Positions 5,558 through 41,692 of a stretch of DNA of 53,064 bases are shown here, piece after piece (positions within the stretch are counted from its first letter, which is position 1; the number at the start of each line of letters is the position of its first letter). Position numbers and translations under genes: made by a program. Source of the stretch: an uncultured Planctomycetaceae bacterium (GTDB lineage Bacteria; Planctomycetota; Planctomycetia; Pirellulales; Thermoguttaceae); contig CAZDHR010000002.1 of NCBI GenBank assembly GCA_964505295.1, forward strand, positions 1 through 53,064, written 5' to 3'. Below the pieces are notes generated by a model. That model did no database searches and was not told where the DNA came from. It saw only the letters and a list, made by a program, of their open reading frames with translations.

Positions 5558-5868
5558 GGGCACTCGCGACGGCCGGAGAGGATGGGGTCGCGGCAAAGTG
5601 GCGTTGCACCAAGGCAACCAAGTTGCCGAAACACGACGGGAGCCGAATCGGGAGGGTGCTGTCCGGAAGGGGACGGCGACGCCCCGGAAGTTCAATCCGG
5701 GCGCGTTTGGCAAAGACCCGCGCAAGCGCGTATGCACCGCCGGGGACGAAAAGTTGCCGCCTACCGGGAAGGAGAGTCCTTGCGGACGGCCGCTAAGCGA
5801 GGTTCCTCGCCCCGGCGTTCGGCGGCCAAGACGCGGATGTTCGCCGCGGCAGGGCGAGTCGCAACCTA

Positions 5869-7290
5869 TCAGTAGTCCCGGTTCATGTTCAGGATGAAAT
5901 CGACGGCGTCCGGATCCGGGTCGACGTCCTCGGTGTCGCCCAGATTGCTCCGGTCGGCGTCCACCTCCTCGAAGTCCGACACGGCGAAGTAACAGCCGAG
6001 CACCTCGTTGGACAGGCGGGCCCAGTTGTCCGCGGCCTCGAAGTGGTCGGGAGAGGTCTCGATGATCGAGTCGTGCAGGTAAGCGTGGTCATACCCGCCG
6101 GGCGTGGGCTCGGCGTCGGCGTGGCCGATCACTCGGTCGAAGTACCTTGCCCGGTTGAAGAACCCGTCGCCATAGAGCCTCGCCTGGTGGGAGTCGGCCA
6201 AAGCCTCGAACACGTCGTCGCCCGGCGAGTCGTAGAGGTGGGCCAGGTCGCCATTGCCCTGCGTGGCGTAGGCGTACACGGCATCGAACGACTTCACCCG
6301 GTTGAAGAACCCGTCGCCATAGAGCTTGGCTTCGTCGGGCCAGGCCTTGAAGGTGTCCGGCGAGGTCGGGTCATCGTAGAGCACGGCCGAGTCGCCGCTA
6401 CCCGCGGTCGAGAAGGCGTGCACTTCGTCGAACGACTTCGCTCGGTTGAAGAATCCCTTGCCGTAGAGCTTGGCTTCGTCAGGCCAGGCCTTGAGCGTGT
6501 CCGCTTCGGTCGGGTCGTCGTAGAGCACGGCCATGTCGCCGCTGCCGGGGGTCGAGAAGGCGTACACGGCGTCGAACGACTTCGCCCGATTGAAGTACCC
6601 GTCGCCGTACATCTTGGCCTGCTCGGGCCAAGCCTTGAACGTATCCGCTCCGTCCGGGTCGTCGTAGAGCCTGGCGATGTCGCCATCACCCGGCGTGGCA
6701 TAGGCATGCACCTCGTCGAACGACTTGGCCTGGTTGAAGAAGCCATCGCTGAACAGTTTGCCGAGGGTGGGCGTCGCCCAGAAGGTATCCTTGCTGCCGG
6801 CACGGTCGCGCAACACGCCCACGTCGCCGTTGCCCTGGGTGCCGTAAGCGAGCACCTGCCCGAAGGAGTAAACGCGGTTGGTGAATCCCTCGCCGCTGAG
6901 CTTGGCAAACTCGGGCGTGGCCAGGAAGGTATCGCGTCCCAGGGGATCGTCCCGGAGAATCGCGATGTCCTTTCCGCCACCGCCATCCGCCGTGACGAAC
7001 TCCGCTCCGGCGATTGCTACCACGAAGCCGGGGCCGAAGAACGCACCGTAGTCGGACCTCAGGTTGGCCGTCTCGTCGGCACTGGTGCCTTGGAAGACGA
7101 CTGCGTCGATGCCCTCCCCGGCGTTGAAGCTCACGTAGTCTACGTCCGCTGCGGCGAAGCTGTAGGTCTCGCCGTTGATGAAGGCGGTATAGGCTTCGCC
7201 CTCAAGGCCGCCGGTGAAACGGAACACGTCGGTCCCCTCGGTGCCCACGATGATCACCCTCCGGCCGTCCTGCGTGACGCTACCCGGTTC
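5869..7290 (-). other. C-terminal module homologous to the C-terminus of the 467-5137 protein
   Basis: VGTEGTDVFRF...INGETYSF...FNAGEGIDAVVFQGTSADETANL...GGGGKD, then 48-aa repeats, ending DAVDFILNMNRDY. It parallels YGTDGDDRLEF...INGVHYEF...FDGGAGDDAAVLLGSAGADTAVL...GQGGDD, then 47-aa repeats, ending ASIDFVLQTQGPWTEL. Confidence 0.85.
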
Positions 7291-10200
7291 CCAATTGACG
7301 GTCGGGACCTCGATTCGATAGTCTTCCACCTCGCCGTCCGGGGCGGTGCCGGTGTACGGCACGTCTTGCCATGTGTTCTCGTCGTACAGCCGCACGACGC
7401 TGTCATCCTCCCAGGTCCACTGCCACGTGCTGAAGCGGAATCGGGCGTAGGTGTCTCCGGGCATTGCATCGGCCGGGACATCGAAGGTGACGTAGTTTGT
7501 GACGCTGGGGCCCGGGGCGAGCTGCACGGCGTAGCCCGTGCCGTTCGGCCCCTGCATATCCAAGTGTTCCCCGGGATCGTCCCAGTCTCCGTCCCGGTTA
7601 AAATCGATCCAGGCACTGAGCCATGCCCCCTCGGTGGTGACGTTGTCGGTAGTGACAACCTGCAACGTGAGGGGCATGCCGGGCGTGATGCCCTCCAGCC
7701 CGAACACGCCGTTCTCGTCGTCGTGGTCAGGGTCCGGGTCGGCGTCGTCCCCGGTCGCGGCTTCGCTGGGAATCCCGTCGTCCTCGACGTCCAGGCTCGA
7801 GCCGTCCGGAGCTTCCGCACCCAGGTACAGCTCCTTGTTTTGCAGATGACGGGCGCCGTTGTCGGCCAGCAAGGTCGGATAAGGCGCCGGCGCGTCGCCG
7901 AAGTCCATGTCGCCGTCGTCGTTGAGGATTGCGATCACCGCCTCGGTCTCGTCGACGGCCACGCTCTGCGTGCCGGGAGTCACCACGACAACCTGCGCCT
8001 CGGCACTGAGAACCTCCAAGAGGAAGGTCTCATCCAGTTCGACGTCCGTATCGCCGTTGATCTCCAAAGTGACCGTGAAGGTCAGCGCGGGCTCGGCCTT
8101 GGTGGCGACGAGGATCTCGAAGTCCTCGCCGTCGTGGTACCTCCAAGCCATCATTTCTTCGGAGATCTGCGGATACCAGTCGAACGCGTCGTTGTCCGAC
8201 AGGTTGATCGGGATCCGGTCGGCGCCGAACTCGTAGTAGTAGACCTCCCAATCCGTGCCGTCCCAGGTGTGCCAGACCGCGTAGTTGCCGGCCACCCGAG
8301 GATGCTCGTCGCTCAACGAGCTGTTGGAGATGTTCACGGCCGCGGCGCCCGAGGCGGCGTTGGCGACGTTGCTGTAGAAGATTTCCCAGTTCGTGCCGAC
8401 TAGGCCCTGCCAGACCACGTTGTTACCGGAGATGTGCGGATCGATGTCATCCGCGGCGTCGTCGGTGAGCTGGAACGTGGCGCCGAAACCCGTGTTGGGA
8501 TCGAACGAATGGAGGAAGACCTCGTCGTCCACCCCGTCGTCGGCGACCCAGAGGATGTTGTTGCCGTCGATCGATACGGAGTGTTCCGAGAGCGTGTTGT
8601 TGGTCACCTGGGTCTTCACTCCGGAGGCGCCGGCTTCCGCCCGGAACAGATACACCTCCAGGTCGGTGCCGTCGCTGCCGTACCAGGCGACGTTCGAGCC
8701 GGAGATTCGAGGATCGTAGTCATCGAAGTTGTTGTTGGAGATGTCCTGCGGCGCGCCGGCGGCGGCGATGTCGTAGAGGAAGATGTCCTGGTCGGTGGGC
8801 GTGTGGCCCGTCCAGGCCACATGCGAATCAGATACCTGCGGCATCTTGTCGTCGTAGTCGTTGTCCGTCAGTCGGACGGTCGTCGACGTCGTCGTTTGAG
8901 TCGTCAGGTCCGTCACTCGGGTGCACAGATAAATCTCATAGTCCCCGGCGTTCGGGTCTACGGGGTCTTCGCCCTCTGGGATACCCGCCCAGACGACGTG
9001 GATGGTCTGCGTCGTGCCCTCGGTGAACTTGTACACGCTGGCAAGTTTGTCGTCCGTGCTGTTATTGGTGAGCCGTTCAGGCGACTCCATCGTCGTGGCG
9101 TCGTACAGGAAGATCTCCCAGGTCTCCCCGACGCCGACCGGGGACTCGTAGACGAGGCTATCGCCGGAGATCTGGTAATCGTAGTCGTTGGATCGGTCAC
9201 TCGTGATCGTCTCGGTGGTCCACTCTTCCAGAGGTTGACCGTGTGGGTCAATCGTGATCGACGAGTCGACGACAGTGTGGTAATCTGCATCGCTGGGATC
9301 GGGCGCCGTCGGCCCGACGAGATCGCCGCCTCGGGCCGCGGTGGGGTCGGTATCCGGGTTGCCGGTCTGCTGGGTTTGGTACTCGATCGTGATGGGAGCA
9401 CCGAAGGACTCCGTCACCTGGAACGTGACTTCAACCGTCGTGGTCGGATCAATGCCCGAATTCCCTTCCACCACGGTCGCGTCGGCGACCGTGACGTGCG
9501 GGACCTTGTAGTTGCCGAAGTTGACGCCCGCCAGCGCCTCGCCCGAGCTTAGCTCCACGGTGTAGTAGCCGGCCTCCCGGCTATGGGAGCCGGCGTTGGA
9601 CGTCAGCCGCGTGGTTCCGGCGTCGAACGTCACGAGGTCCCCGGTCAGCGTGACGGTTCCGCCGATCGAGCTGGCAGTGATCAGGAAGGACGCGCTCGAC
9701 ACCGAATTCACGGCCGTCCGAATCGCCCTGGCCACCGTCGTTCTCGAATCGCCGGGCGTGAACGGCACCCGCACCGCCGAGGCGTTGCTTACCACGTTGT
9801 CACTATCCAACTCGAACACGACCATGGCATCGCCGTCGCCGATGGAGAAGGTTTGCCGGTCGGTGACGTTGGCCACCTGAGAAGTGCCGACGCCCGGGAC
9901 GGCGACGTCCATGCTGCCGCCGGCCAGATAGAGGTCGTCGCTGTTGGGGGCCGTCTGGAGCCAACCCGACGGAACGACTTCGTTAACCGTGTAGGACCCG
10001 TCGAACAGTCCTGGGAATTCGTAGAACCCCGTCTCGTCGACGCCCGTCGTCAACGGGTCGTCCGCCATGGTGACCGTCGACTTGCCGTCCAATTCGATGG
10101 TCACGCCGGCCAAGCCGGGCTCGATTCCCAGCGGGAGGCCGGTGCTCGGATCGAATCGGAACGCGTACTGGACGTTCATGGCGTCCAGGTCCGCCTGGCT

Positions 10201-13200
10201 CGACGGACGAGCCAGGCTGTAGTAATCGGTGAAGTTGCCGCTGTCGAAGCCGATTTCGGCCCCGCCCCCGCCGAATCCCCCCGCGCCGCCGTCACTGTCA
10301 CCCGTCGTCCACGACAGATCGACCACGTTGTCGCCGTTGGCGTCGTAGTAGTGGAACGCGACGATGTCGCCGCCGAGATCGTCCTCGATATGGAGCGCGA
10401 AGCTGTTGCGTGCGTCGGTATTGCTTCCACTCGTGCGATCGTTGTAGCCGACGTTGACCCAGTCCACCTGGACGAACGGGTTACCGCGCTCGGTGGTTCC
10501 GGTGGCCAGGTGGACGCTGCCGCCGTTGTCGCGCGTGTCCACGTCGGCCCAGAACGGGGCGATCATGGGCATGTACTGCGCGAACCCGGCGACTCCGGGA
10601 GTCCTCTGGTAAGGCCCGAGGAACGTGATGTTCCCGTTGTTGTTGATGTAGAACCGGTCGTACGTCTGCCCGTAGAACTCGAAGTCGAACCCGAACGAAA
10701 TCGCGCTGGAGTAAAGGTTGTCGTTGGCCGACACGTTGTTATACGGCACGCCGTCGCTGTCGTAGCCCGACATCAGGACGCCGACGCCCGGGGAGACCGG
10801 CTCGATCACGGGAGCAACCCCGCTGGAGGCCGGCTCTTGATCCCAAACGCCGTCGCCGTCCAGGTCGTTGAACACGTAACCGCCGATCGACGCGTCGCCG
10901 ACCTCGATGTGGACTCGATAGTCCTCGACCTCGCCGGGGGCGTCGGACCCACCCGTCGGAGACTCGACTTCGGTGTCAACCGAACTGAACCGGAACCGAG
11001 CGAAGGTCGTCAAGGCGTTCAGGCTCGACGGCACGACCAGCCTTTGCGCGTCCACTTCCGGCATCGCGAGCAAGTCGGCCAGATCGTAAGTCGTCGTGAC
11101 TCCCGTCGTCCCCAAGGGCACCGCGGAGAGAATCTCTTCCCAGATCTCGTTGCCTTGGGCGTCGGTGTAGGCACTCTCGGCCCAAACGTTGTCTTGGTTG
11201 TAATCAACCCAAGCGCTTAGGTAGCCCTCGCCGGTGACCGTTACCTGCAAGCCCTCGATATGGTTGCCCACAGCGAACCGGGTCCAGGTAACGCCGTCTT
11301 CGTCGTCGCCGTACGCTGGGTCCGCGGCGAACTCATCGTTGTCGTCGCCCTCGGCGATCGCGTCCGGCTGGCCGTCGGCCTCGGGGTCGACCAAGTAACC
11401 GAGGTATATCTCTTCCGAAACCGCATGGCTGGCACCGTCGTCGGCAGCCAGCGTCACATAGGGCAGGGGCGCGTCGCCGAAATCGAGCCCACTATCATCG
11501 TTGAGGATCACGATCTCGGCTTCGTCTTGCTCGATTACGACTTCCTCGACGGCGACCGTGTTCAGGTCCACCACGTCGGCGCCGTCGATGATCAGGCTGA
11601 ACGGCTCATCGTACTCGACGTCCGTGTCGCCGAATACGACCAGCGGAATCGTGACCGTCACTTCCGGCTTGGCCCGCGTGGCCACGATCAGCCGGTACAC
11701 TTCGCCGTCCAAGGCCCGCCAAACCACCAAATCCTCACTGACGACAGGATATCGGTCTTCCAGGTCGAAATCGGCGGAAACGTTCTGTGAAGCCATCGCC
11801 GTATCCAACCCGCGGTACATGACTTCCCAGTTGCCCCCGAGTTGCTCCGACTCCCACACGACCTGATCGCCTTTGATCTGGGGATTCCCGTCGTCGAAGT
11901 AGGCATTGGCGGAGACGTTGACCTTCGCCCCGGAAGACACTTGGTAGCGGAAGATGTCCCAGTCTCCGCGGCCGCTCGGATCGGAGTCGTAGCCCTGCCA
12001 CACCACGTTGTCCCCAGACACCTCGGGCGTGTTGTCGTTGTACGCGTTATCCGTGATCCGGGTGAACGTCTCCGATTCGATCTGGTAAAGGAAGATCTCG
12101 TAGTCGCCGCCGTCGTGGCCTCTCCAAACCACGTTGGAGCCGTCGATCCGAGGCGAGCGATCCGTCAAGGTGTTGGTGGTGATCGCAGTAACGGCGGGCG
12201 TGCTGGAATCGCCGTCGGTATCGTTGTGCAGATTGTAGAGGTAGATCTCGAAGTCCTTGCCGTCGTCCCCGTACCACACGACGACGGTATTGGTGACCGC
12301 CGCGCCGCCGGAGCCTATCTGGTAGCTGGAAATCTGCGGCTCGAAGTCGTCCAGACCGGCATGGTCGTAGATCCGGTCGGAGAGGTTGGCTATCCCACGC
12401 GTGCCGACGTCGTAGAGGTAGACTTCACGGTCGGTAGCGGTCTCGCCCCACCACGTCACGTAGGAGCCCGACACCTGGGGGTCGCCCACCTCAAAGAGAG
12501 TGTGGGTCACTTGGGTCGTGGCCCCGGTGTTGATGTCGTAAAGGAAGATCTGCGAATCGTCGCCCGTACCGCCGGTACCGAACACGCCGTCGTGGCCGAC
12601 CCAGGTCACGTAGCCAGTCGCCCCGTCCTCCGACACGTACATGTTCACGGCGTAATCGTCCGTGTCATTACGGGTGATCTGGATGACGGCGTCGGTCTTG
12701 GCGTCATAGAGGAAGATTTCCGTATCCTCGGTGCCGGTGCCACTGCTCCAAACGACGTAGTCCTCTGAGACGGCGTACGACGACACTCCTCCCGGAAGCT
12801 GGATGGAGCCGTCCCGCGTCGCCGGGGATGTCGTGTCTTCCTTGGTACGAAAATAGCGCGGCGCGTCCTTCTCCTCGACCGGGCCCGACGTGCCTCCCGC
12901 GGAATGGGAAACGACCATTTGCTGAAGGAAGTCGTCCCACTGCGTGTCGGCGACGAACTCCAGGGTCGAGTTGTATGCGGAGTGGACCGTGTCGCCCTCA
13001 GCGGGCAGGTAAATCGACAAACCGGTCGCGGTGTAGTACGCGCCGGAGTACACCTCCACCACGGCGGCGTCCACCGCCGCCTTCACCTGGCCCGCGGCCG
13101 TGACGATCGCCGGAGCCACCGACGCGGCCTCCACCAGGCTCATGAAATGGCCCAGATCGCGGAACTCGGGATCGCCGAACCCCTGGGCCGCGTCGCGCGC

Positions 13201-16200
13201 GGCTTGCACGGCATTCCAGTCCGCCGTGGTGGCCGACGTAATCATCAATTCGGCGAACCCCTCCAACTCGCCGACCAAACCCGTGGTTGCGCTGCCGAGT
13301 TGGCTGAGGTCCGTCGCCGTGAACGTATCCGTCGGATATCGCAACGCGTAGGCGTCGACGATCACGCTTCCCAGCGCGGCGGCGTCCATTCCGGGGTCGC
13401 TCACCAGCGGCCCGAGGATGTTCTGATACTCCCATCCGTCCCAGGGCTCCGTCTCCTCGCAGGCCGCCATGACGTCCGCCTCGTTGCCAAGCTGATAGGC
13501 GATTTCGGTCATGCTCATCAAGCAGGCGTCGAAACCAACGACCTGCAAGTGGGGAAGTGCGTCCATCGCCACGGCCAACTCGTCCATTTCGAGATTGTCG
13601 AAACTCGTGTCGTCGTAGCAGAAGCCGTAATACCCGCTCCCATGGTCCCAGAACACCAGAGCGTAATTCGACGACGGGTACTCGGTCATCGCCCAGTCGA
13701 CGAAGTCGACGACCGTGTCCGGGTTGCCCATGTTGACCTCTCCAAGGCCGATGCCCCAGTTGCCGTCGGGGACATCGCCGGCCTCGACCAGGCCTCGCCG
13801 CGCGCCGGTCCAGTTGCCGTATCGGGTGTCATAACCGAAGATGCGGTCGAACTGGACGACGACGTTCACGTCGCCAGTGGAGCCGACGCTGGCCATTTCC
13901 AGGAAGTCGTCGATCGCGGCGTCCTCCAGGTTGCAGTCGCCGTCCAGGTAGACCATGAACGTCCAACCGACCGCCGCCGCCGAGCTTCCCCCGCCGAGCA
14001 CCGCGATCGATTCCGAGGTCCACGCTCCCAGCGGCGGACTCTGCGGGTCGATGGTGACCTGCTCCGCGTACGCCGGATCCGACGGAAGCACCGCCGTATC
14101 GGCGTCCTGGTAGTCGTCGCCGCCCTCGGCGCCATTGGGCGGATCGCCGTCTTCGGTGTGGTAGTCAAGCGTGATCTCGGCCCCGAACGATTCGGTCACG
14201 TGTACCGTGACCTCGACCGGCGTTTCTCCCAAGTCTCCTTCGCCCACCCAAACGTCGGAGACCGCGATCACGGGCTTCCGGAAGTTGCCGAAGTTCGCGA
14301 TGCTGAACAGCTCTCCGTCCTCCAGGTAAACCCCGTAGGACCCTTCTCCCGTCGTCCCGTCCACTTGACTGAACGACGTAATGTCTTCCAGCGGGCTGCT
14401 GGTGTGCTGGGAGAACTCTACGGCGGCGTCGCCGACAGCCCTCAAGATTACGGAATTACCCGTTACCGATGCGGAGACGTCCAGCCTCCCCACACGGTTC
14501 ACCGCGCCTGCGATGGCCGTGGCGACCTGCGCCGCGGTGGTGGCGCCGCTCACGTTGACGAGCACGTTGGTCGAACCCGAGTTCCCGTCGCCGTTCAGGT
14601 CGAACTCGAACCGGACGCGGTCAGTCCCGTCGAACACCTCGAACCACTCGGATTCCTCGAGGTCCTGCTTCTCGACGGTCTGGATTTGCAGGACGCCGGT
14701 AGGCACGTACTCGTCTTGATTCGGATACGTCTGAAGCCAGTCGCTCCAGGCATCCAGACCCGGAATCTCGGCCTGAAGCCGTCCGAGTTCCGTGGGCTCG
14801 ATGTCTACTTCCTCGCGGACCACGAAATAAGGCGTCGCGAGGCCCGGATACTCGCTGCTGGCCAACAGCCTGTCGAACTCATAGTAGCCCGTTTCGTCCA
14901 CGTCGGACGTGGACAGATCGTCCTCCGTGGTGAGCGTCCACGGTTCCGGGACTACACCGTTCGGGAGGTCGTAATCGAAGTCGAGACTTCCGTTGTCGTT
15001 GAGGTCCAGGTAAACGAGCGCGCCGGCCAAGCCGGGCTCGGGGTCAATGGGCACGCCGGCGGTCGGGTCGATCCGGAAGGAGTACTGCTCGATCTGAAGC
15101 AATTCCGACAGGGTCATTGGATCGTCGGGCCGCATCACGCTGAGGTAGTGAGCGCCGTCGCCGGCGTCGAACCCGATCTGAGCGCCCTGCCCTCCGAACC
15201 CGTTGCCGGTCCCCGACCGGTCGCCGGTGGTCCACTCCATCGCCGCGTACTGGAAGATCACAATATCGCCTGCCGCATCGTCCTCGATGTACACCGAGAA
15301 CGTGTTGCGAGCGTCCGTGTTGCCCGAGTCGGTCTGATCGTAGTATCCCACGTCGATCCAGTCGACCTGGACGTACGGCTTGTCGCGCTCGCTGGTCCCC
15401 GTCGACCACCGCACTTCGCCGGCCCCGTTTCGCGTGTCCACGTCGGCCCAGAACGGAGCGATAATCGGGGTGGACTGGGGGAATCCGTCCGGCGAGAAGT
15501 CGCCCAGCGAATCCTCGAACGTGATGTTCCCGTTGTTGTTGATGTAGAACTGGGTGTACGTATTCCCATAGAACTCGAACGAGAAGCCCAGGTCGAGAAG
15601 ATCCGACGACAGGTCGTCGTTCGGGCCGACGTTCGTGTGGATCATACCGTCGCTGTCCCTGCCCGACATGAGCACCTGTTGGCCCGACCCGAGCGTGTTC
15701 AACGTGACCGCCGGCACGGAGATCGGCTTGCCCTCGGTGTTCCAGACGCCGTCGCCATTGACGTCGTCGAACTTGTAGCCGCTAATCTTGCCCTCGCCGA
15801 CCTCGATCGGGACCTGATAGTCCTCCACCTCGCCGAACGCCACCTCAAATCGCTCGGTGTCGGAATTCCAGAACCAGTATGCTGCGGTCGGAGATGCAAC
15901 GGCTTCCTCGATCGAACTGAGCCGGAACCGGGCATACGTGGTCATGTCGCCCAACTCGGCCGGGATGTAGACGTAGAACGTGCGAGTTGGCTGGCTGCCG
16001 TCGAAGTACCGTTGGTCTTCAGGGATAATCTCTTCGGAGATCGGGTTGCCGTCGGGGTCGAGATAGCCCGTGTCACCGTCCCAGACGCCGTCCCCGTTGA
16101 AGTCGATCCACGCATTCACGTAGCCGACGCCCGTCACGGTCACCTCGAACGTGGCGATCTGGCCCGGTGCCAGCCGGTCCCAGGTGACTCCGTCCTCGTC

Positions 16201-31200: not shown

Positions 31201-34200
31201 CTCGACGTTGAACCAGAAGTTGTAGACGCCGCCGGGCACTCCGTCGGCGTCGCCGTCAAACCGAACGTTGTTGTCGGCGTCGACCAGGTACGTCGAGCCG
31301 TCGCCGATGAACGTGGACGGGTCGTCCGGATCGACCCCCTCGGGCGTGAAGTTCAGCCGCAGATCGTAGCGCCCCTGGGTAACGCCGCCGATACCCGTGT
31401 CGTCGATATTGGCGTCGTACATGTCGTTGCCGCTGGCCGTCACGCCGATGTAGTACGTGCCGGCCTCCAGGTACATCTCGAGGTAGGAGTCCTCGCTGTA
31501 GTAATCGTCGTTCTGGGCGAGCGCCCGATAGGTGGCCACCGGCTCTCCGTCCACGAAGGTCACGTACTGCTCGTACAAGACCAGCGTGGCGTCGAGCAGG
31601 CTCGAATCGTCCATGCGCTCGGCGAAGACCTCGGCGCTGAACACGCCGTCCTCGCCCAGCTCGAACTGGTACATGTCGATGTCGATACTCTCCGGACGGT
31701 AGAGGTGCCGCCCATGCACGACGTCGTTATCGCCCGGGTAGACCGAGTCGGCCGTGCTGGTGTAGTTCTCAATGTCCTCGTATCCCCCCATGATCGTTCC
31801 GATCGGCAGGTCGTACGCGTGCCCGAACCCGAGGTTGTGCATGATCTCGTGCATCGCCACGTTGAACCAGCGTCCGCCGTAGTGGCCGGGATCGGTGCGA
31901 AAATCCTCGAAATCCATCAGGGCCAATCCGTTCCCACCAACCCCCGCCACCTCCCCGGGACCCGACTCCAAGCCCACCGCGATCAAGTCGCCGGTTGCCA
32001 CTTGAATCCCCAGACTCTCCGTTTCGTAGAACTGGACCCCGAGGTAGTAGCCGAGCAGCTCGAAGATCTCCCGGGCGCGGTCCTTCTGCGCTTCGGTAAT
32101 CAAGTTGTGAAGCGGCTTGCCTTGCGCATCGTACCCGTACACGTCGGCGAAGTTGTACGGGATGGTCGTGACGCCGTCGACCGAATCGGCGTTGATGTCC
32201 GGGATATAGCTGCCCAGGAAGTCCGCGAAGTGATCTTCGATGGCGATGCCTTCGTGCCACGACAGGTCGCGGTGGCCGGGCTCGTCGATGGCCCCCGGCC
32301 ACTCCAGGCCGTAGGGCTGCGCGTCGATACCCGCCGAAATGATCAGGCTCTGCGGCGAGTCGCCGGTTCCGAAACCGCCCAGCCCCTGCGCTTCGTGGAA
32401 CGTGTCGCCCGCGTCGACCGGAAGCGACAAGACCACCGCGTCGTCCACGGTGATCTCGTTGTTCAGATTGACCAGCGCGACGTCGGCCGCGTCGAGACCC
32501 TCGTAGTTGGGGTCCGAGCTGGTGGCCGCCGCCGTCATCGCCAAGAAGAGAACGTCGCCATCATCCTCCAGATCGTCGACACCCGTCACGGTCACGGTTT
32601 GGGGCACGTTCCAGTTGGCCGGCGTGAACGTGAGGGTCGCCGGCCCGACCGTCCCCTCGGTCAGGTCGTTGGAGGATAGCTCGATTGCGACGTCGGCCGC
32701 CGGCTCCGAGTCCAACACGACCGTGAACACGGCCGACCCGCCACGCTCCGTGGTCTCCAAGCCGGAGACCGGCGTGACCGTGATCCCCGCCGTGTCGTCA
32801 TCGAGATTGGTCACCGAGACGTTGGGCGGGTTGATCCCGTCATAGTTCGGATCGTCGCTGGAGGCGGCGCCGGTGATGATGGAGTACGCGATGTCCCCGT
32901 CGTCGACGAAATCATTCTGCCCGGTCACGTACACCAGTTGCGGCACGTTCCAGAGGTTCGCGTCGTCGAACGTCAAGCTCGAAACCGACACGGTCCCTTC
33001 TGCGGTGTTGCTCGACGCGATGGGAATGGTGACCGACGTGCCGGCCTCCAGCGCGAAATCGAGGACCACGCTGAACACGGCCTGCTCGCCCGACTCGGTC
33101 GTCACCAAGTCCGGAGTCTGCCGGACGGTGATCCCGGGGACGTCGTCGTCCTGATTGATCACCCAGACGTTGTCGGCATCAATGCCGTCGTACAACGGGT
33201 CGTTGCTCACCGCCGGGCCGGTCAGGATGGTATAGAGAGCGTCCCCGTCGGCGATCAGGTCGTCGACGCCCGTGACGGTGACCCCTTGGGGTACGTCCCA
33301 GTTGGCGGACGTAAACGTCAGGAAGGCCGGGCTGACCGTGCCTTCCGTGAGGTCGTTGGAATGAATCTGGATGGTCACGTCCTGGGTGGGCTGCGAGTTC
33401 AGAACCACGGCGAACGTGGCCACGTCGCCCGACTCGGACGTCAGAAGCGCGGAATTCACCTGCGGCCCTTGATACTGTAGGACCCGGTTGTTCCACATGC
33501 TCGCGACGTAGAGGTCGCCGTCCACCCCGAAAGCCAACCCGCGGGGCCCGTTCAGTCCGCCGCTTCCGCCGGTCACAAAAGTGTCGATCAACGCGCCGGA
33601 GTTGACGTCGTAGCGCAGGACGCGATTGTTGTTATCGCTGCTCACGTACAGATTGCCGTCGGGCCCGAACTGCAAATCGGTGGGGCCGCTCAGCCCGCCG
33701 CCCGACGCGAAGACGCCCAGGGAGGTCCCCGTTGCATCGTAACGGAACACTTGATTGGTCCCGTGGCTGGCCACGTAGAGGTCGCCGGTCGGGCTGAAAA
33801 CAAGCCCCCAGGGCTGAGAGACTCCATTAACAAAATCGTCGATCCACGCGCCCGTCGTTCCGTTATAGCGGCGCACCTGGTCGCTACCGAAACTCGACAC
33901 GTAAAGGTTGCCGTCGCCACCGAAGGCCAACGCCGTGGGAGTGGTCGGCCCATTAACACCGGCCGCTACAAACACCCCGTCAAACCCGGTCGTCAGGTCA
34001 TAGCGAAGCACGTTGTCCGAACCGAGGCCGGAGACATACAGCTTGCCGTCCGGCCCGAACGTCAGGCCCGAAGGCTGGGTGAGCCCGTCCGTGGCGGTAT
34101 CGGCGAAGACCCCGACGAATGCGCCCGTCGTTCCGTCATAGCGGAGAACCTGATTGGTTCCAGAACTGGCGACGTACAAGTCGCCGTCGGGCCCCCCGAA

Positions 34201-37200
34201 GACGGCGCCGCGGGGCGCACTGAGGCCGCCGCTGGCGAACGTGCCGAGGGACGTGCCGCCGCCGGCCAGCGTGCCGGTCGGAACGACGGTGAAGCCTGGG
34301 GCAAGCCCGTTGAGCCAAACCTTGTTCGGCTGATTGGCGTTGGTCACGAAGGCATCGGAGTCCCCGTCGCCGTCCAGGTCGCCCATCGCCACGTCGGTAC
34401 TGTTAGAGCTACCCAGCGGCGGCCACTGGCTGATCGTGAAGCCTGCGGAGCCGTTATTCAGCCAAACCTGATTGGCTTGGTTGTTCGTGTTCACCACAAA
34501 CGCATCGAGGTCGAAGTCGTCGTCCAAGTCACGGAGGGCGACCGCTTGGCCAAACGAGCCGCTCAGTCCCCCGCCGTAGAGTGTGAATATCCCTGCCCCG
34601 TCGTTCCGCCACACGCGGTCGGCTTGACCGCGGTGAACGGTAAAGGCATCGATGTCGCCGTCGCCGTCCAGGTCGCCGAGGCCGACGTCGGCCGTGTTAT
34701 AGGAGCCCAGGGTCTGGCTGGTATTGGTAAAGGTGGCGGCCCCGTTGTTCCGCCAAACCGTATCGGCCTGGGAACTGTTGTTCCCGACGAACGCATCCAG
34801 GTCGCCGTCGCCGTCCAGGTCCGCAACCGCCACCGACTGAGTGTTGCCGGCGCCGAACGAACTGTCCAGGGTAAAGGTTAAGCCGGTCGAGAGCCAAACC
34901 TCTTCGGCCTGCCCGGAATCGTTGCCGACCAGCACTTCCCAAGCGGAACCGGGGGCCAGGTTCGCCACGACGACGGAAGTGGTCGCGGCACTGCCCAACC
35001 TCTCGGTCGTCTCCAAGAACGTGCCACTAACCGCGTCGTATTCCCAGACCATGTTGGGCTGCGAATAGTTGCCGACAAAGGCATCCAGGTCCCCGTCGTT
35101 GTCGAAGTCCTCCAACGCCACGTCTCGGGTAGCGTAATACGCGTCGGCGAAGGTCAGCGTCTGCGCAAGGGTGAAATTACCCGTCCCGTCGTTAAGCCAC
35201 ACCTCATCCGGGGCCCCGTCGTTTCCGACGAAGGCGTCCAGATGCCCGTCGCCGTCGATGTCTCCCAACGCGACCGAAGAGCTTGGCCTGTTGACGACGT
35301 CCTCCCACCCACCGACAAACACGGCCCCGCCGCTTCCGCTCTTCGCCTTGCCGGTGCTTCCGGCGTCGTAGATAACGCGGATTTCGCTCGCCGACAACGC
35401 GCGGTCGTAGACGGTCACCTCGTCGGCCCGCCCATCCAGCGCCCAGTCGGTGCCGAGCGAGAACGGGGTTCTCCCGATATAAAACGTGGAGCCCGCCGAC
35501 GTGTCGAGGGCCACGGTGCCACTCCAGCCGAAGGAGTTGCCGTTCAAGTAGAGGGTGACTTGGTTGCCGACATTCGTTACCGCCACGTGGTACCACCGGT
35601 TTGTCGACAGAGTGGGGCCCGTAACGGTGCTCCCCCCCTGAGAGAAAATGAGCCGCCTGCCCTGCGTGCCGAGCCAGTAGGACTCGCCGAAGTCGTTGAA
35701 GTCGCCGTAGCCGGCGAAAAAGGCCCCCTCGGTGGGTTGGGAGGGCAACGAGTCGGCCCTGATCCACATTTCGATGGTCCGATCCTCGTTCCCCGTGGGC
35801 AGCAAGGCGGTCGGGGCCCGCACATAGTCGCGCACCGCGCTGGCCGTGTCGAACTGGAACGCCTCGCCCACGTTCCCCGTGTTGAACGTGGTATTGCCGA
35901 CCAGGTTCCCCTCGTTCGGGCCCGAGATGTCTTCCGCGTCCCCCTCGCCGGGCCACCAACTCACCAACCCGTCCGGGAGCTGTATCGAGGCCGGCGCCTC
36001 GTCGTCCAGGTTGGTCAGCGACACGTCGTCCGGGTCCAGGCCGCTGTAGGCCGAATCAGCGCTCGTGGCCGCGCCGATCACCACCGTGAAGCCAATGTCG
36101 CCATCCGGGATCGAGTCATCGACGCCTGTGACCGTAACGACGTGCGGCACGTCCCAACCCAACGTCCCGCCGGAAGTCGGCAGGAAGTGCAAGCTCCCCG
36201 GCGAGACGGTGCCCTCGGTGATGTCGCTCGATGACAGCGGCCAGAACCAGACGTCGCTCGTCGGTTGGCAGTCGAGTACGACGCTGAATTGCGCCACGCC
36301 GCCCTGCTCAGTGGTCACCGGAGCCGTGATCGGCGTAATCGTCACCCCGGCGTCGTCGGCGTCGAGGTTGGTTACCGTCAGGTCCGGGGCGAGCATGTTG
36401 TTGTAGTTCGCATCGGGACTGGAAGCCTGGCCCCTGACGATATAGGGGCGGTCACCGTCGGCAATCGGGCCCTCCGGGTCGGCCAGCCCGGTCACCGTCA
36501 CCGTCTGGGGCACGTTCCAGTCGGCTGAGGTGAATACAACCCGCCCGACGAAGGTACCAAGGATGGGATCGGTGACATCTCCTTCCGAGAAGTCCAAGGA
36601 AGAGAAGTCGATGGTCACGTCCGCCGTCGGCTCGACCGTGAGCACCACGTCGAACTGGGCCGTGCCGCCCTGCTCCGTCGTAAACAGGCCCGAGGTCGGC
36701 GTGATCTGGATGCCGGAGATGTCGTCGTCGAGGTTGGTGACGGTCACCTCCGAGTAGTCGGTCCCGTGGTACGCCGCGTCCATCCCGTGGTAGGGAGATG
36801 ACGTGTCGCTGCTGGAAGCCGGCCCCACGGCAATCGTGTAGACCTGGTCGCCGTCGTCGAGGTCCGGATCGTCATCGACCCCGGTGACGGTCACCGTCTG
36901 GGACACGTTCCAATTCGTCGAGTCGAACGTGAGCGTCGACCCCGAAACGGTGCCCTCGGTCTCGTCGCTGGAACTGATCGGAATGGTGACCGTCTCCCCG
37001 ACCCCCGGCTCCGACGTGAGCGTCACGGTGAACTGGGCCGTGTGGCGCGGGTCGTTCCCATCCTCCGTGGTCGTCAGCCCTGAAATCGGCGTGACCACAA
37101 TGCCAGGCTCGTCCTGCTCAACGGCCACGGGCCCCACCGCGGCGACCAAGTACAAGCCCTGCGTTTCGTTGGCCAGGTTGATCGCCTCCTCAATCGCCTG

Positions 37201-40200
37201 AGCCATTTCGGCGACGGTGTACCCCGGCTGGGCGGGCGAGACCCACGGAAGGAACCCAACCGGCACGGCGCCCGGTGTTACCAACCCGTTCGGCGCGGTC
37301 AGGTCCTCGAACTCGAACACCACCACCGCCGAGCCGTCGCTCAGCTCGAAGGTGACCCCGTCAGAGATCTTGCTCGGGTCGAAGTAGTTGGGATTGCCGG
37401 GATCGGGCGGGACGGAGAGGGCGCTGCCATTGAGGACGTCCAGCGGGCCGGCGTCGACGACCTCGGCGGCCATCGCCGTCGTGTCCACCACGTGATACTC
37501 GGTGCCGATCCGCAGACGAAACGCCCCGGTGCCGTAAGTGGCCAAATCGAACTCGAACGTCAGCACGGCCATGTTGGCGTCGGCATCGTAGCTGACGTCG
37601 ATCGGCAAGATCGGCGTGCCGTCGTCGTCGGGCCTGGCCGTGTCTTGCGTCACCAGGAGTTGGTAGAACTCCACCGTCTCGGCCGCGTCCAGGTCCAATT
37701 CGTCGTCGTTGAAGTAGACTTCGATCGTGTCGCGTTTCTGGGTGAGACTCTCCACCGTGAACGGCAGCGCGCCGGGGAAGAACCTCGCGCCACCTCCGGC
37801 CAACACGACGACGTCGGCCCCCGCATCGGGGACGAGGGTCACGGTGACGTTCTCGAGCGCGCCCGCCGTGATTTGAGCATCGATGGCGGCCACCATCGCC
37901 GCGGCCACGGCGTCCGCGTCCGCGGCGCCTTGAATATCGACGATCCCCAAGCCGGTCGTGCCGTCGTCGCGGAACTCGAAGACCGCCGTGTTGTCGCCGT
38001 CGTACACGCTGAACGTGTCGCCCGTGCTGATCAAGACCGGATCGATCCCGGCGACCCGGACGTCCCCTCGCTCGATCGGTTGCGGGACCACGGCGACGAC
38101 CTGCGAGCCGAGATCGAGCTCGAAGTCGAAAACGAGGTCTTCCCCATCGCGGAAATTCATCCCGTAGACGTTCGTCAACGCCGGCACCGCCACGCCTTCG
38201 ATGTCGGTGTAGCCGTCGGCTCCCACAATGATCATTTGGTAAAGATCATCGGGGAGCGTTTCGGCGAATCGCACGATCACCTCGTTCTCGTTATCGCCGA
38301 TCCCGATCCACCCGATTTCCACGATCTGGTCGTCGCCGTCGCCGAAGGTGCCGTTCACGCTGCGAATAAACTGAATCGACGGTTGGCCCGTGGTATCGCC
38401 CAACGTGACCCGCGACTCCTCAATCTGCGTTCCCTCGTTGAACCGGAGCAGAAGCTCCTTCGGGGCGATGTTCAAGACGTCGCCCTCGTCCATCAGGTCA
38501 CCCTCGTTGGGAATGACGGCGATCAAGTCCGGTGCCGAAACGCCCAAGGGGGCCGCGCCCGCCAACAACGTAAAGTCTTGATCCGTGACGTTTCCGGTAT
38601 GGCCGACGTGAATCGTGTACGTTCCGGCGACCGGCACGTCGATGACGACCTGCTCCACGTTATCAATATGGTTTGCCGTGGTGCGGACCGCGGCGGCCGA
38701 AGGATTCGCCGGGTCGAGTGTCCACGGGTAATGGGTCCCGTCGGGCCCGGTCACCCACAGGTCCAGGTCGTTCACCAGCACCGACGTGGAGACGTCCAAG
38801 CCGGCACCCTGGTCGGTCCCGGCCGGGTCGGTCCAGACGAGGGTGGCCTTTAGCTGCGTGCTTCCATCGGAAACGATGTCCGCCGTCCATCCCGTGCCGT
38901 CGTAGTTCGCCTCCTGCAACACGTAAGTCGACGCCCCCGTGGCCGAGCTGGTGACGAACTCCGCCGCGTCGGCGACGTTCACCAGCCCCCAGCCGTACGT
39001 GTAGTCCGGACCGACGTTTCCGGCGTCCGTGGCCATGTGGATCAGCAAGCCTTTGGTGGTCGCGCTAAGCGGGGCGGAGCCACGCTCGTTCTCGAAATGC
39101 TCGGCAAGCAACACGGCCGACCCCGTCACGTTCGGAGCCGACATCGAGGTGCCGCTCCAATCGTAGGTGTCTCCCTGCGCCGGATCGCCGTCGTAGGCCG
39201 TGTTGCTGAGAACGCCGCTGGTGTCGTACGCCACCGACGAGTGAACCTGGTAGCCGTTGCCGACGACGTCGGGCTTGATCCGCCCATCGTCGGTCGGTCC
39301 ATAGCTGGAGAACGACGTGACGTTGACGTCGGCGGCCGTATACGGATCGGCAGTCACGTCCTCGACGGCCCCCACCACCAACGAGTTCTTGGCCGTCTGC
39401 ATGTTCGACAGCGTGTCGTAGCCGCCGTCGGCCACCCCGTCCCTGCCGGGCGCGGAGACGTCCGAATCGAGGACCAGGTACCAGTCGGCTCCGGCCCAAC
39501 CGGCCAGGCCGGGATCGACCGAGAAGTAGGTTATGTAGGCGCCGTCCCCGTTGACGTCGTAGAAGAAGCCGTCCCCGTCGGAATCGAAGAACTCCTCATT
39601 TCGATCGTTTCCCGCCGCCCAAACGCTCAGCAAAGTCGGGTTGGCGTAAAGGACTTGGTCCAGATTGGCGGTAAACGAGTCGTATTTCCCAAAGCCTTCG
39701 TCTTCCGTGCCCAAGGACCGATCGCCGTACCATACGGCGATCCAGCCGGTCGTCGTCGAGACGCCCGGCCAATTCGCCACCGGCTCGATGGTCCAACCGC
39801 GAACGTATCCGTACGAGTGGTTCGACGCATCGATCAGCGACGCCTCGCTGGCCAACTCGGCGACGTCGTCGCCGGGATTGGCGTCGTTGAAGATGTTGTA
39901 ACTGAGGAGGTTGATGTCGATCCCCATCCCCTTCGCGCTCGAATCGACGCCGGAGGCCGCGATCGTCCCGGCGACATGCGTCGGGTGGTCCTCGTAGGTC
40001 CCGCTGTCGGCGAGCGTGACGCGGCTCCCGCCCGTCCCGTCGCCGAATTCCTGATGGGTTTCCAGGATCAGCCCGCCGTCCCAGACGCCGACGGTGTATC
40101 CGTCGCCCTCCAGGCCCAAACCGGACACGCCCCCGACCTTGAGCTGGTCGGCGTTGGTCGTGTCGGCGGCGTTCACGTTGTACAGCACGTGAACCGGCTC

Positions 40201-40410: not shown

Positions 40411-40417
40411 GGATCAG

Positions 40418-40424
40418 CCTCCTT
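40418..40424 (-). promoter_or_regulatory. Shine-Dalgarno AAGGAGG of the giant gene
   Basis: Minus-strand TAAGGAGGCTGATCCATG, with 7 nt between the SD and ATG 40410. Confidence 0.8.
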
Positions 40425-40576
40425 AGAGCTGCGCTAGGCAATTCGGCCCAGTTCACCTGCCTGTTCGACCCGTCCTTGGTAGATTGGAAAACCAAATCCT
40501 TCAAACAAATTGTCGGAAGATCTTGCAAGAAAAGCGCAAAACGATCCGCCCGACAAAACGATCAGGAGTCGATTCG

Positions 40577-40605
40577 ATTAAAACCCGAATGGGGCCGAAA
40601 ATCAA
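40577..40605 (-). promoter_or_regulatory. Candidate sigma70-like promoter (TTGATT-17 nt-TTTAAT) for the giant gene
   Basis: Read on the minus strand in the only AT-rich stretch upstream of the gene. It would give a ~160-nt leader. Planctomycete promoter rules are poorly known, so this is weak. Confidence 0.3.
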
Positions 40606-41655
40606 CCCCCAATTTACCTAATTCGCACATTTACCTTCGCTTCCCCAAGGTGACACTCCGGTCTGCAACACGGGTAGTTTCCCCTAAGGACAAACCCAAA
40701 CAGAATGCGCATGAGCGAAGCCCAACACTAAGGGAGGGCAACCGTACTCAATCTGGTCGTCGTGCGCACAAGAGGTAATGGAAAGGGAGGCCACCTTGTC
40801 GAAGCTCTCTCGCGTCATCACCACCCAGTTGGCAATCCCCAAGCTTGCGTTCACGCATCAGACTTACAGCACCTCTCCAAAACACACTCTTCCTGACGGC
40901 CAGCAATCCCCCCGTGGGCCAGGGTGTCGCCCGCATCGTGCGAGTCATAACCGGCAAAAGGCGCAGAGCCGGCCTCCAGACACGCCTGCACTCCTTGTGC
41001 CATTCCCGGCCAAACCCCAGCCGATAGCTGAACACCTCAGATCATCCGACGTAAGTCACTTTAGTCGAAGTCTTTACATCGCTCCATTTGGAGCGGATCG
41101 CACCCTTTCTTCGGGGCGAAGCTACGTCGGCCGCCCTGTAGCGTTTTGCTACGAATGGGGCGTTTTCGCGCGGCAACCGCCCCCACCAACGGGTGTCATG
41201 GCTGCGGTCCGGCTTGCCGACGGGGGCCCCGCGACGTGGCCCCAAATCGGCCAACCCAATGCCGTGCGCCCGTCTCATCCTGCGTCCATCGCGTTCAGCC
41301 TTGGCCACGGCACGTCCCGTACACGTAGGGGAGGTCAAGATACTGCGCTTGTGTGGATAAGAGACGGCGGGATGAGCCCAACTCGCCGCTCTCTGGCGGC
41401 CACGGCGACACCTACGAAAGCGGCGACCTTCCGGCATCCGTCAACAGACACGTGGGCCTACGAGGTGAGGACACACGTACTGTTGCGAGTTTGCGGCCGA
41501 TCTGCGATGTGGAAATCGGCCACCGCACGATGACCGTCTGCCACCTGGGCAACATCGCCTACCAGCTCCGCCGGCTGCTTGGAAGTTCCCCCCGCCCGGA
41601 AGTCATCGGGCGCGGTTCGCGGCGCCGGCCTCACGCCTCGACCGCGGGGTTTCGC

Positions 41656-41691: not shown

Positions 41692-41692
41692 C

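What the first reader, a model, noticed from the sequence alone, without database searches (positions are those of the whole stretch)
5869..40410. 34.5-kb uninterrupted ORF (11,513 codons) with a consensus SD, one of the very large bacterial genes
Seen in sequence. There is no stop for 34,542 nt in one frame and AAGGAGG lies 7 nt upstream of the ATG. Domain-like sequence is present from the first to the last 100 residues, which argues against a chance GC-rich open frame. The internal repeats are diverged rather than identical, which argues against an assembly-collapse artefact. Established knowledge: giant genes have been reported repeatedly in Planctomycetota and other phyla, but most are uncharacterised. 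How such a protein is exported without a classical signal peptide, and whether it is processed by its own protease domains, is open.
Basis: partly seen in the sequence, partly recalled or inferred. Interest (0 to 1): 0.75.

Follow-up and report, generated by a model that had tools for sequence, protein, structure and literature searches.

The report
Giant planctomycete surface-protein gene, 34.5 kb
This is a real, intact 34.5-kb gene of a Thermoguttaceae-like planctomycete that encodes a 1.24-MDa secreted or surface protein built from proteases, propellers and sugar-binding-like modules; it is a large example of a known kind of gene rather than something new.

Summary
Window 5869-40410 on the minus strand is one stop-free frame of 11,513 codons, starting at an ATG with AAGGAGG 7 nt upstream. 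GC3 is 0.79-0.93 in every 200-codon block. Collinear orthologues in three other assemblies show dN/dS of 0.16-0.44 along about 9,500 codons.

The product is a 1.24-MDa, acidic, almost cysteine-free multidomain protein. It has:
- an S8 subtilase head with an intact catalytic triad;
- LamG, FG-GAP and NHL propellers and beta-helix regions;
- a super-repeat of about 1,620 aa (propeller, GEVED, NIDO);
- an embedded C11 peptidase with an intact His/Cys dyad.

- The N-terminus carries the planctomycete export motif RRLxxExLExRxLLA (LEPR-XLL type).
- The last 470 aa form a 48-aa-repeat beta-solenoid with no Pfam or NCBIfam model. This module also ends the downstream C25 peptidase and about 4,700 other protein clusters, many of them giant.

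The giant-plus-protease gene pair is conserved. The C11 domain is absent from two orthologues.

Two related assemblies carry frame-breaking indels. Internal paralogy and intact orthologues support the window's version.

Giant genes are well documented in Planctomycetota, so this is a new member of a known kind and of moderate interest.

The parts
5869..40410 (-). Giant gene: 11,513 codons plus stop. Product is 1,235.6 kDa with pI 4.05; D 11.4%, G 10.6%, K 0.9%, and only 11 Cys.
40418..40424 (-). Shine-Dalgarno AAGGAGG, 7 nt before the ATG. It is conserved in relative L025.
40577..40605 (-). Candidate promoter: TTGATT, 17 nt, TTTAAT. Both hexamers are conserved in L025 while the spacer diverges. 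This is an inference; the consensus scan did not report it.
40258..40305 (-). N-terminal motif, aa 36-51, PRDLRVEQFEERMLLS. It is preceded by a very basic stretch (13 K/R in 36 aa). It is of the planctomycete RRLxxExLExRxLLA / LEPR-XLL type.
   Evidence: NF012209 aligns at profile positions 1-13 but scores only 8.4-12.8 bits against a cutoff of 17. The motif is conserved in P0038 and P0042. Literature: PMC8567305.
38611..40143 (-). S8 subtilase head (Pfam hit aa 134-475) plus a KP-43/SubHal-like C-terminal barrel and a weak PPC hit. Catalytic residues D111, H145 and S422 are present.
35944..37374 (-). Tandem units of about 115-130 aa with no Pfam family (aa 1013-1489; motif FTxxNWNVPQTVTVTGVDD).
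35380..35829 (-). Laminin_G_3 / concanavalin-like lectin domain, aa 1528-1677.
34246..35280 (-). FG-GAP repeats (8 stretches), a beta-propeller, aa ~1711-2055.
33481..34182 (-). NHL / SGL / ScyE-like beta-propeller, aa 2077-2310.
32410..33453 (-). Second array of the same unannotated units of about 115 aa (aa 2320-2667).
28561..31113 (-). The most conserved stretch (aa 3100-3950; dN/dS 0.16-0.19). It is a right-handed beta-helix region with a Pfam Beta_helix hit at aa 3672-3806. The predicted fold resembles polysaccharide lyases and AlgG only weakly.
23461..28560 (-). aa 3951-5650: no confident family (weak PPC and MAM-like hits only) and no internal repeats, but under purifying selection against L002.
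22843..23379 (-). Second Beta_helix plus DUF5123, aa 5678-5856.
7300..20511 (-). Super-repeat region, aa 6634-11037. Units of about 1,620 aa contain an Msarc-type beta-propeller, GEVED, NIDO and an Ig-like (SdrD_B) spacer. Paralogous copies are 35-60% identical. GEVED at aa 6635, 8097, 9730, 10931. NIDO at aa 6814, 7413, 8287, 9919. Propellers at aa 7590, 9212, 10409.
12922..13953 (-). Peptidase_C11 (clostripain family), aa 8820-9163, covering the full Pfam profile at E 4e-45. H8923 (WDHGSG) and C8963 (FDAC) are present. The domain is absent from orthologues L003 and L004.
5872..7293 (-). C-terminal module, aa 11040-11513. It consists of a small beta domain, about six 48-aa repeats (GGxDxAxLYDxxGxDxFxAxPxxAKLYGDGFFNRAKSFDxVxAYA) and a tail, ...AVDFILNMNRDY. 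AF2 predicts an all-beta solenoid with pLDDT 93.6. No Pfam or NCBIfam model matches.
467..5137 (-). Partner gene of 1,556 aa: LEPR-XLL motif (RRCRFEPLEQRFLLS), Peptidase_C25, proprotein-convertase P-domain, and the same C-terminal 48-aa-repeat module (47% identical to the giant's). It lies directly downstream of the orthologous giant gene in L003 and L004.

Best explanation
This is a single, intact, functional gene of a Thermoguttaceae-like planctomycete (order Pirellulales). It encodes a 1.24-MDa extracellular or cell-surface multi-tool protein.

Shown:
- The frame is real coding sequence under purifying selection along nearly its whole length.
- The domain order is: N-terminal planctomycete export-type motif; active-site-intact S8 subtilase; lectin-like and propeller modules (LamG, FG-GAP, NHL); two beta-helix regions of the polysaccharide-lyase-like fold class; four rounds of a propeller-GEVED-NIDO-Ig super-repeat with an embedded active-site-intact C11 cysteine peptidase; and a C-terminal 48-aa-repeat beta-solenoid.
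- Both ends are shared with the conserved downstream C25/P-domain peptidase and with a large family of other big planctomycete proteins.

Inferred:
- The basic N-terminus with the LExxExR-LLS motif directs export in place of a classical signal peptide.
- The acidic, Gly/Asp-rich, Cys-free body folds outside the cell, probably with Ca2+.
- The C-terminal solenoid serves secretion and/or attachment to the cell envelope.
- The binding modules hold particles, polymers or other cells while the protease domains, and possibly the glycan-active beta-helix domains, act on them.
- The partner protease may trim or release the giant protein.
For: - ORF, SD and coding statistics.
- Collinear orthologues. 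L002 covers aa 1521-8592 at 69-76% identity. L003 and L004 cover aa 7572-11512 at 59-73%. P0038 covers aa 1-~700 at 52%.
- dN/dS is 0.16-0.44 in every 400-codon block compared, including stretches with no Pfam hit.
- Domains.
- Catalytic residues.
- N-terminal motif. PMC8567305 states that RRLxxExLExRxLLA is thought to be an export signal, and found 20 of 52 Tuwongella proteins carrying the equivalent motif in the proteome, 8 of them only in the SDS-soluble fraction.
- A homologous S8 head with a classical signal peptide at the same place: P0117.
- C-terminal module. It is shared with the neighbour. It occurs in 37 close relatives, several with PF07595 or S8 domains. There are 4,697 cluster representatives, mostly C-terminal and in proteins up to 7,237 aa. 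The solenoid model is confident, and the weak best structural matches are RTX beta-rolls.
- Taxonomy and gene pairing. All 22 genomic loci are Planctomycetota MAGs, mostly Thermoguttaceae. Seven module-bearing ORFs run off the 10-kb flank at over 3,400 aa. The C25 gene lies directly downstream in L003 and L004. Paralogous giants in L005 and L006 are followed by an S8 plus P-domain protease with the same module.
Against: - There are no expression, proteomic or localisation data for this gene.
- The giant's own N-motif scores below the NF012209 cutoff, and PF07595 did not hit it.
- No secretion-system genes lie in the window or in the flanks examined.
- Two related assemblies carry frame-breaking indels, so broken alleles may exist.
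- About 40% of the length has no recognisable family, and the fold matches for the beta-helix region and the C-terminal module are weak (E >= 1e-3, TM < 0.3).
- aa ~800-1520 are not covered by any independent sequence.
Confidence: 0.8

Rival explanations
1. Assembly artefact or pseudogene: the 34.5-kb frame is a chimera of several genes or repeats, or the real locus is broken by frameshifts, as in the related contigs.
For: L001, at 99.5-99.8% identity, has four frame-breaking indels within aa 10170-10669 and was called as ORFs of 2051, 125 and 822 aa. L002 has an 8-nt deletion at aa ~7457. The L025 gene call ends after 811 aa. No independent sequence covers aa ~800-1520.
Against: - An assembler cannot create a stop-free frame of 11,513 codons when about 311 stops are expected.
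- GC3 is uniform along the frame.
- There are no near-identical repeats to mis-join.
- Domain order is collinear with L002, L003 and L004 across all module junctions covered.
- Paralogues align in frame across three of the four L001 indel sites.
- L003 and L004 are open over 3,680 and 3,792 codons there.
- dN/dS of about 0.3 continues on both sides of the L002 deletion.
Confidence: 0.06
2. Type-1-secretion-style giant RTX-like adhesin. The C-terminal repeat solenoid plus tail is an uncleaved C-terminal secretion signal used by an ABC/MFP/TolC system encoded elsewhere, as in LapA/MpIBP-type adhesins and the Vibrio LEPR-XLL...RTX giant protein.
For: - The best, though weak, structural matches of the module are RTX beta-rolls: CyaA 7rah_E at E 1.5e-3, then LipA, AprA, PrtC and RsaA.
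- The composition is acidic, G/D-rich and Cys-free, and there is no N-terminal signal peptide.
- The tail has a conserved D followed by hydrophobic residues near the C-terminus.
- PMC10868602 reports a protein of about 8,000 aa with an N-terminal LEPR-XLL and a C-terminal RTX.
Against: - There is no HemolysinCabind or RTX Pfam hit in the module.
- TM-scores are 0.23-0.28.
- No ABC, HlyD or TolC genes occur in the window or in ten flanking genes of related loci.
- The repeat is 48 aa, not a nonapeptide.
- A conserved N-terminal motif is not a T1SS feature.
Confidence: 0.15
3. Polyprotein. The giant product is mainly a precursor that is cut into separate enzymes and binding proteins by its own S8 and C11 domains and/or by the conserved neighbouring C25/P-domain protease.
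For: - The active sites are intact.
- A protease gene with a proprotein-convertase P-domain follows two different giant-gene lineages: window/L003/L004, and L005/L006.
- Another paralogous giant embeds trypsin and P-domains.
- The same idea has been proposed for Omnitrophota giants (bioRxiv 10.1101/2023.11.21.568195).
Against: - No cleavage sites have been identified.
- C11 is missing from orthologues L003 and L004, so it cannot be essential for maturation.
- The partner protease has its own promoter-like region and conserved leader, and could simply be a co-exported enzyme.
- Pairing is not universal; L013 and L015 lack it.
Confidence: 0.2

Closest known systems
Planctomycetal 'giant genes' (Reva & Tummler 2008; Kohn et al. 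2016, PMC5177795; Planctomycetota proteins of 10,000 aa or more in West-Roberts et al. 2023, bioRxiv 10.1101/2023.11.21.568195)
   Same: Same phylum and same size class; the largest Fuerstia gene is 36,239 bp. The predicted role is also cell-surface or adhesion, with multidomain repeats and large unannotated parts. S8 domains near the N-terminus are noted in other giant proteins.
   Different: This lineage (a Thermoguttaceae-like MAG) and this domain order are not described in the papers read here. The shared C-terminal 48-aa-repeat module and the conserved partner protease are not mentioned there either.
Proteins with the planctomycete N-terminal motif (Pfam PF07595 Planc_extracel; NCBIfam NF012209 LEPR-XLL / 'LEPR-8K')
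   Same: A basic N-terminus followed by xLxxExLExRxLLS, about 35-65 residues from the start, with no hydrophobic core, on large extracellular-type proteins. The neighbouring C25 protein passes the NF012209 cutoff (18.4 vs 17 bits).
   Different: The giant's own motif (VEQFEERMLLS) is divergent and below both models' thresholds. The function of the motif has never been demonstrated experimentally in the papers I could read.
Giant RTX adhesins and T1SS substrates (LapA, MpIBP, CyaA-type RTX blocks)
   Same: Megadalton, acidic, Cys-poor repetitive extender modules; a C-terminal parallel-beta repeat domain at the extreme C-terminus; no Sec signal peptide.
   Different: No RTX nonapeptides, no nearby T1SS genes, a different repeat length, and only weak fold similarity.
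T9SS cargo and the PorU sortase (Bacteroidota)
   Same: The logic is similar: many cargo proteins share a conserved C-terminal domain, and a C25-family peptidase carries the same C-terminal domain itself. The neighbour hits the PorU model NF033707 at 60 bits.
   Different: The score is far below the cutoff of 420, which reflects only the shared C25 catalytic domain. The C-terminal module is a long solenoid, not the T9SS beta-sandwich CTD. No T9SS genes were seen, and T9SS is not known in Planctomycetota (from my own knowledge).

Membership tests
Bacterial giant gene (>5 kb per Reva & Tummler; 'very large' at 10,000 aa or more) | A single uninterrupted coding frame above the size threshold with a coding signature | tested here: met
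   34,542 nt; GC3 0.79-0.93 throughout; about 311 stops expected by chance
Bacterial giant gene | Conserved as one collinear gene in relatives (not a chimera) | tested here: met
   L002, L003 and L004 are collinear, with dN/dS 0.16-0.44. aa ~800-1520 are not covered, and L002 has one 8-nt deletion.
Bacterial giant gene | Transcribed and translated as one product | not testable with these tools
   No transcriptome or proteome is available.
LEPR-XLL / Planc_extracel N-terminal motif proteins | Match to NF012209 or PF07595 above the curated cutoff | tested here: not met
   The giant scores 8.4-12.8 bits against a cutoff of 17, and has no PF07595 hit at E<=1. The neighbouring C25 protein scores 18.4 bits and is met.
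LEPR-XLL / Planc_extracel N-terminal motif proteins | Consensus RRLxxExLExRxLLA near the N-terminus after a basic stretch | tested here: met
   R-D-L-R-V-E-Q-F-E-E-R-M-L-L-S at aa 37-51; 13 K/R in aa 1-36; conserved in P0038 and P0042
Peptidase S8 (subtilase) | Pfam PF00082 above cutoff and the Asp-His-Ser triad | tested here: met
   110.7 bits against a cutoff of 21.8; D111, H145, S422
Peptidase C11 (clostripain) | Pfam PF03415 over the full profile and the His-Cys dyad | tested here: met
   155.3 bits over profile positions 1-357 of 359. H8923 and C8963 align with the WSHG and FDAC motifs of 6n9j and 6mzo.
RTX / T1SS substrate | GGxGxDxUx nonapeptide repeats (PF00353) | tested here: not met
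   No PF00353 hit anywhere in the protein
RTX / T1SS substrate | Cognate ABC transporter, MFP and TolC | tested here: inconclusive
   None in the window or in the flanks examined. The rest of the genome was not available.
T9SS cargo / PorU system | T9SS CTD on the cargo; PorU equivalog score | tested here: not met
   No CTD family hit. NF033707 scores 60 bits against a cutoff of 420.

The most novel reading that the evidence does not exclude
The LEPR-type N-terminal motif, the unannotated C-terminal 48-aa-repeat solenoid (about 4,700 protein clusters, many on giant proteins) and the recurrent downstream P-domain protease carrying the same two ends may together mark an undescribed planctomycete pathway. 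That pathway would export, anchor and process megadalton surface proteins. It would be analogous in logic to T9SS CTD/PorU or T1SS/RTX, but unrelated in sequence.
Probability: 0.15. Interest if true: 0.7.

Novelty: new member of a known kind. Interest (0 to 1): 0.38.

Why it matters
Giant surface proteins are a hallmark of Planctomycetota, but none has a demonstrated function or export route.

This locus provides a full-length, apparently intact example with orthologues available for comparison. It also shows three concrete, testable features:
- a defined pair of terminal signatures (N-motif and C-terminal solenoid) shared with a neighbouring protease and thousands of other proteins;
- a conserved giant-plus-protease gene pair;
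- a cassette-like C11 domain that is present or absent among orthologues.

These are useful handles for asking how planctomycetes export and anchor megadalton proteins. The existence of the giant ORF is not itself surprising.

Tried and rejected
- Exact 38-mer and 42-mer searches in genome contigs and metagenome contigs found nothing, so the source contig itself was not located.
- The C25 product is not on record under this exact sequence.
- Rfam had no hits in the window.
- Sigma-70 and terminator consensus scans at both gene ends found nothing.
- Pfam at E<=1 on the first 104 aa and the last 200 aa found nothing.
- PDB sequence searches for aa 620-1500, aa 3951-5650 and the C25 domain found nothing.
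- Fold searches of both AF2 models gave only weak matches, so I do not assign a catalytic function to the beta-helix region or call the C-terminal module an RTX domain.
- The first attempt to scan genomes with the 29-sequence alignment failed because there was no conserved 7-10-column stretch. It was repeated with 5 sequences.
- I considered that the segment replacing C11 in L003 and L004 is a vWA domain, because of a DxSGS motif. Pfam does not confirm this.
- Long antisense ORFs inside the gene (for example 20737-24813 +, 12904-16263 +) were rejected as genes, because they fail the GC3 test.
- RNAalifold on the conserved leader upstream of the C25 gene had too few sequences to give covariation.
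Full report
**1. Observation**

The ORF listing gives one ORF at 5869..40410 on the minus strand: 11,513 aa, starting at an ATG. The minus-strand sequence reads ...CTCTAAGGAGGCTGATCCATGGGG, so AAGGAGG is followed by a 7-nt spacer and the ATG. In-frame stops lie 2 and 5 codons upstream, so no earlier start is possible.

With this base composition about 311 stops are expected in 11,513 codons. The other five frames contain 31-397 stops. GC at codon positions 1/2/3 is 0.62/0.44/0.86, and GC3 (0.79-0.93) is the highest position in every 200-codon window. The long antisense ORFs in the region fail this test.

Internal repeats are 35-60% identical at protein level. At DNA level they never exceed about 75-89% over stretches shorter than 300 nt. 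That argues against collapse or duplication by an assembler.

**2. Independent sequences**

- **L001.** A JGI metagenome contig (Ga0366834_1045473, 14.3 kb) matches window 1569-15962 at 99.5-99.8% identity. It carries four indels (-2, -34, -38, +26 nt) between aa 10170 and 10669, so the gene was called there as three ORFs. The window's frame is the one that aligns in frame with the protein's own paralogous repeats across three of the four sites, and on both sides of the fourth.
- **L002.** Contig Ga0307379_10001563 holds a collinear orthologue: 68.6% identity over aa 1521-7457 and 76% over aa 7458-8592. One 8-nt deletion relative to the window switches its frame.
- **L003 and L004.** These come from Thermoguttaceae MAG SMAG_U14240 and a 'Planctomycetaceae' MAG. 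They are orthologous over aa 7572-8802 and 9212-11512 (59-73% identity). Their frames are open for 3,680 and 3,792 codons until the 10-kb flank ends, and the C-terminal tail is nearly identical (...DPDAVDFILNMNRE).
- **P0038/L025.** This 52%-identical relative shares the N-terminus MGIWDSFR...LQMEQFEERQLLS, the SD and the ATG.

Nei-Gojobori dN/dS against L002 is 0.315 overall and 0.16-0.44 in each 400-codon block from aa 1515 to 8459. Against L003 it is 0.27-0.44 for aa 7572-8802 and 9212-11512. The gene is therefore a conserved, selected, single collinear unit.

Two caveats remain. The related short-read assemblies carry frame-breaking indels, and aa ~800-1520 lack independent coverage.

**3. 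Anatomy**

| Residues (aa) | Feature |
|---|---|
| 1-36 | Very basic stretch, 13 K/R |
| 36-51 | PRDLRVEQFEERMLLS |
| ~90-600 | S8 subtilase of the KP-43/SubHal type, with D111, H145, S422 |
| 1013-1489 and 2320-2667 | Arrays of an unannotated unit of about 115-130 aa |
| 1528-1677 | LamG_3 |
| ~1711-2055 | FG-GAP propeller |
| 2077-2310 | NHL/ScyE-like propeller |
| 3100-3950 | The most conserved part: a beta-helix region (Pfam Beta_helix; AF2 pLDDT 73). Only weak fold matches to polysaccharide lyases and AlgG |
| 3951-5650 | No confident family |
| 5678-5856 | Beta_helix plus DUF5123 |
| 6634-11037 | About 1,620-aa super-repeats of Msarc-type propeller, GEVED, NIDO and Ig-like spacer |
| 8820-9163 | Complete C11 (clostripain-family) domain with H8923 and C8963 |
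| 11040-11513 | C-terminal repeat module |

Four of the protein's 11 cysteines lie in the C11 domain. The product is 1,235.6 kDa with pI 4.05. D plus G make up 22% of residues. There is no hydrophobic segment compatible with a signal-peptide core or a membrane helix.

**4. The two ends**

*N-terminus.* The N-terminal motif fits RRLxxExLExRxLLA. According to PMC8567305, Studholme et al. 2004 proposed this motif as a planctomycete-specific export signal (Pfam PF07595). In Tuwongella, 20 of 52 proteins carrying the equivalent motif were detected in the proteome, 8 of them only in the SDS-soluble fraction.

NCBIfam's LEPR-XLL model (NF012209) aligns to the giant's motif below its cutoff (8.4-12.8 bits against 17). 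It passes for the neighbouring gene (18.4 bits). A homologous S8 head (P0117) carries an ordinary signal peptide at the same position. This is consistent with the motif standing in for one.

*C-terminus.* The last ~470 aa consist of about six 48-aa repeats plus a conserved tail. No Pfam or NCBIfam model matches. AF2 predicts a regular all-beta solenoid with pLDDT 93.6 and pTM 0.90. The best structural matches are weak and are RTX beta-rolls.

A profile search finds 4,697 cluster representatives (2,207 at E<=1e-30). Nearly all carry the module at the C-terminus, on proteins up to 7,237 aa among the best 150. Close relatives include ~470-aa proteins consisting of just an N-motif plus the module, and S8-plus-module proteins. 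In genomes the module was found only in Planctomycetota MAGs. There were 11 loci in one Thermoguttaceae MAG, and seven of the 22 ORFs ran off the 10-kb flank.

**5. Neighbourhood**

The next gene downstream (467-5137, minus strand) encodes a protein with a LEPR-XLL motif, Peptidase_C25, a proprotein-convertase P-domain and the same C-terminal module. It follows the orthologous giant gene directly in L003 (81% identity) and L004 (68%).

A paralogous giant gene in L005 and L006 is followed by an S8 plus three P-domains protease with the same module.

No ABC, HlyD, TolC or other secretion genes were seen in the window or in ten flanking genes of related loci.

In L003 and L004 the C11 domain is replaced by a shorter, unrelated ~230-aa stretch. 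C11 is therefore a lineage-specific cassette.

**6. Interpretation**

The best-supported reading is a giant exported or cell-surface protein that combines binding modules with proteases, typical of planctomycetal giant genes.

The coding reality, architecture, catalytic residues, shared termini and synteny are shown. Export through the N-motif, Ca2+-assisted extracellular folding, anchoring or secretion through the C-terminal solenoid, and processing by own or partner proteases are inferred.

The rivals are listed with their tests: an assembly artefact or pseudogene, a T1SS/RTX-like route, and a polyprotein.

**7. Comparison and novelty**

- All 29 planctomycetal genomes examined in PMC5177795 have genes over 5 kb, and 15 of them have genes over 20 kb. 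Its largest gene is 36,239 bp.
- West-Roberts et al. report that proteins of 10,000 aa or more are frequently detected in Planctomycetota. The 7,478 gap-free sequences kept from the 10,000 longest public proteins in BV-BRC are at least 10,624 aa long. They also note N-terminal S8 domains in other giants.
- A Vibrio protein of about 8,000 aa with an N-terminal LEPR-XLL and a C-terminal RTX has been noted.

The finding is a new member of a known kind. The unannotated but very widespread C-terminal module and its pairing with the N-motif and a partner protease are the parts worth following up. Interest is 0.38.

Noticed in passing
window 5138-5868 (minus strand), especially ~5340-5540 and 5140-5200: The 730-nt spacer between the giant gene and the C25 gene is strongly conserved in L003 and L004, in places more than the coding DNA. 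It contains a -10-like CCTATAGT (5456-5449) followed by a nearly invariant stretch of about 110 nt. The window has an extra ~93 nt that the others lack. This suggests the C25 gene has its own promoter and a conserved 5' leader. There is no Rfam match, and three sequences are too few for covariation.
   Followed up: partly
window 8400-9900 vs L001 6060-7511: A 99.5-99.8% identical JGI contig differs by four indels that are not multiples of 3 (-2, -34, -38, +26 nt; sum -48), all inside the last propeller-bearing super-repeat. The +26 is a tandem duplication of the adjacent 26 nt. These could be assembly errors or real broken alleles in the population.
   Followed up: partly
window 12922-13953 vs L003 ~3640-4320 and L004: The C11 peptidase domain is replaced in two orthologues by an unrelated ~230-aa stretch beginning DIVFLFDISGSM (MIDAS-like, but with no Pfam hit). 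This is a domain-cassette swap at a fixed position in an otherwise collinear giant gene.
   Followed up: partly
window 40411-41692: The intergenic region upstream of the giant gene is unusually long at 1.28 kb and is mostly not conserved in L025. The exceptions are a TTGATT, 17 nt, TTTAAT promoter-like pair (40605-40577) and the SD/ATG. The 251-aa ORF on the plus strand here (40778-41533) has no family hit and no coding signature.
   Followed up: partly
window 41693-46780: The 1,353-aa minus-strand ORF has PriA domains only in its C-terminal ~730 aa. Its upstream half overlaps a plus-strand ORF (44132-46780, 882 aa; weak GH123_N hit) that has a better coding signature. The true PriA start is therefore probably internal.
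   Followed up: no
L005 2-11257 and 11731-19913; L006: A paralogous giant ORF of over 3,700 aa embeds trypsin and P-domains. It is followed by an S8 plus three P-domains protease with the same C-terminal module, and then by a planctomycete BBP7 beta-barrel porin gene.
   Followed up: partly
window 47431-53064: The remaining genes are ordinary: a cytidylyltransferase-like (NadD-type) gene, a histidine kinase, an ACT-domain protein, and a VIT-domain protein that runs off the window end.
   Followed up: no
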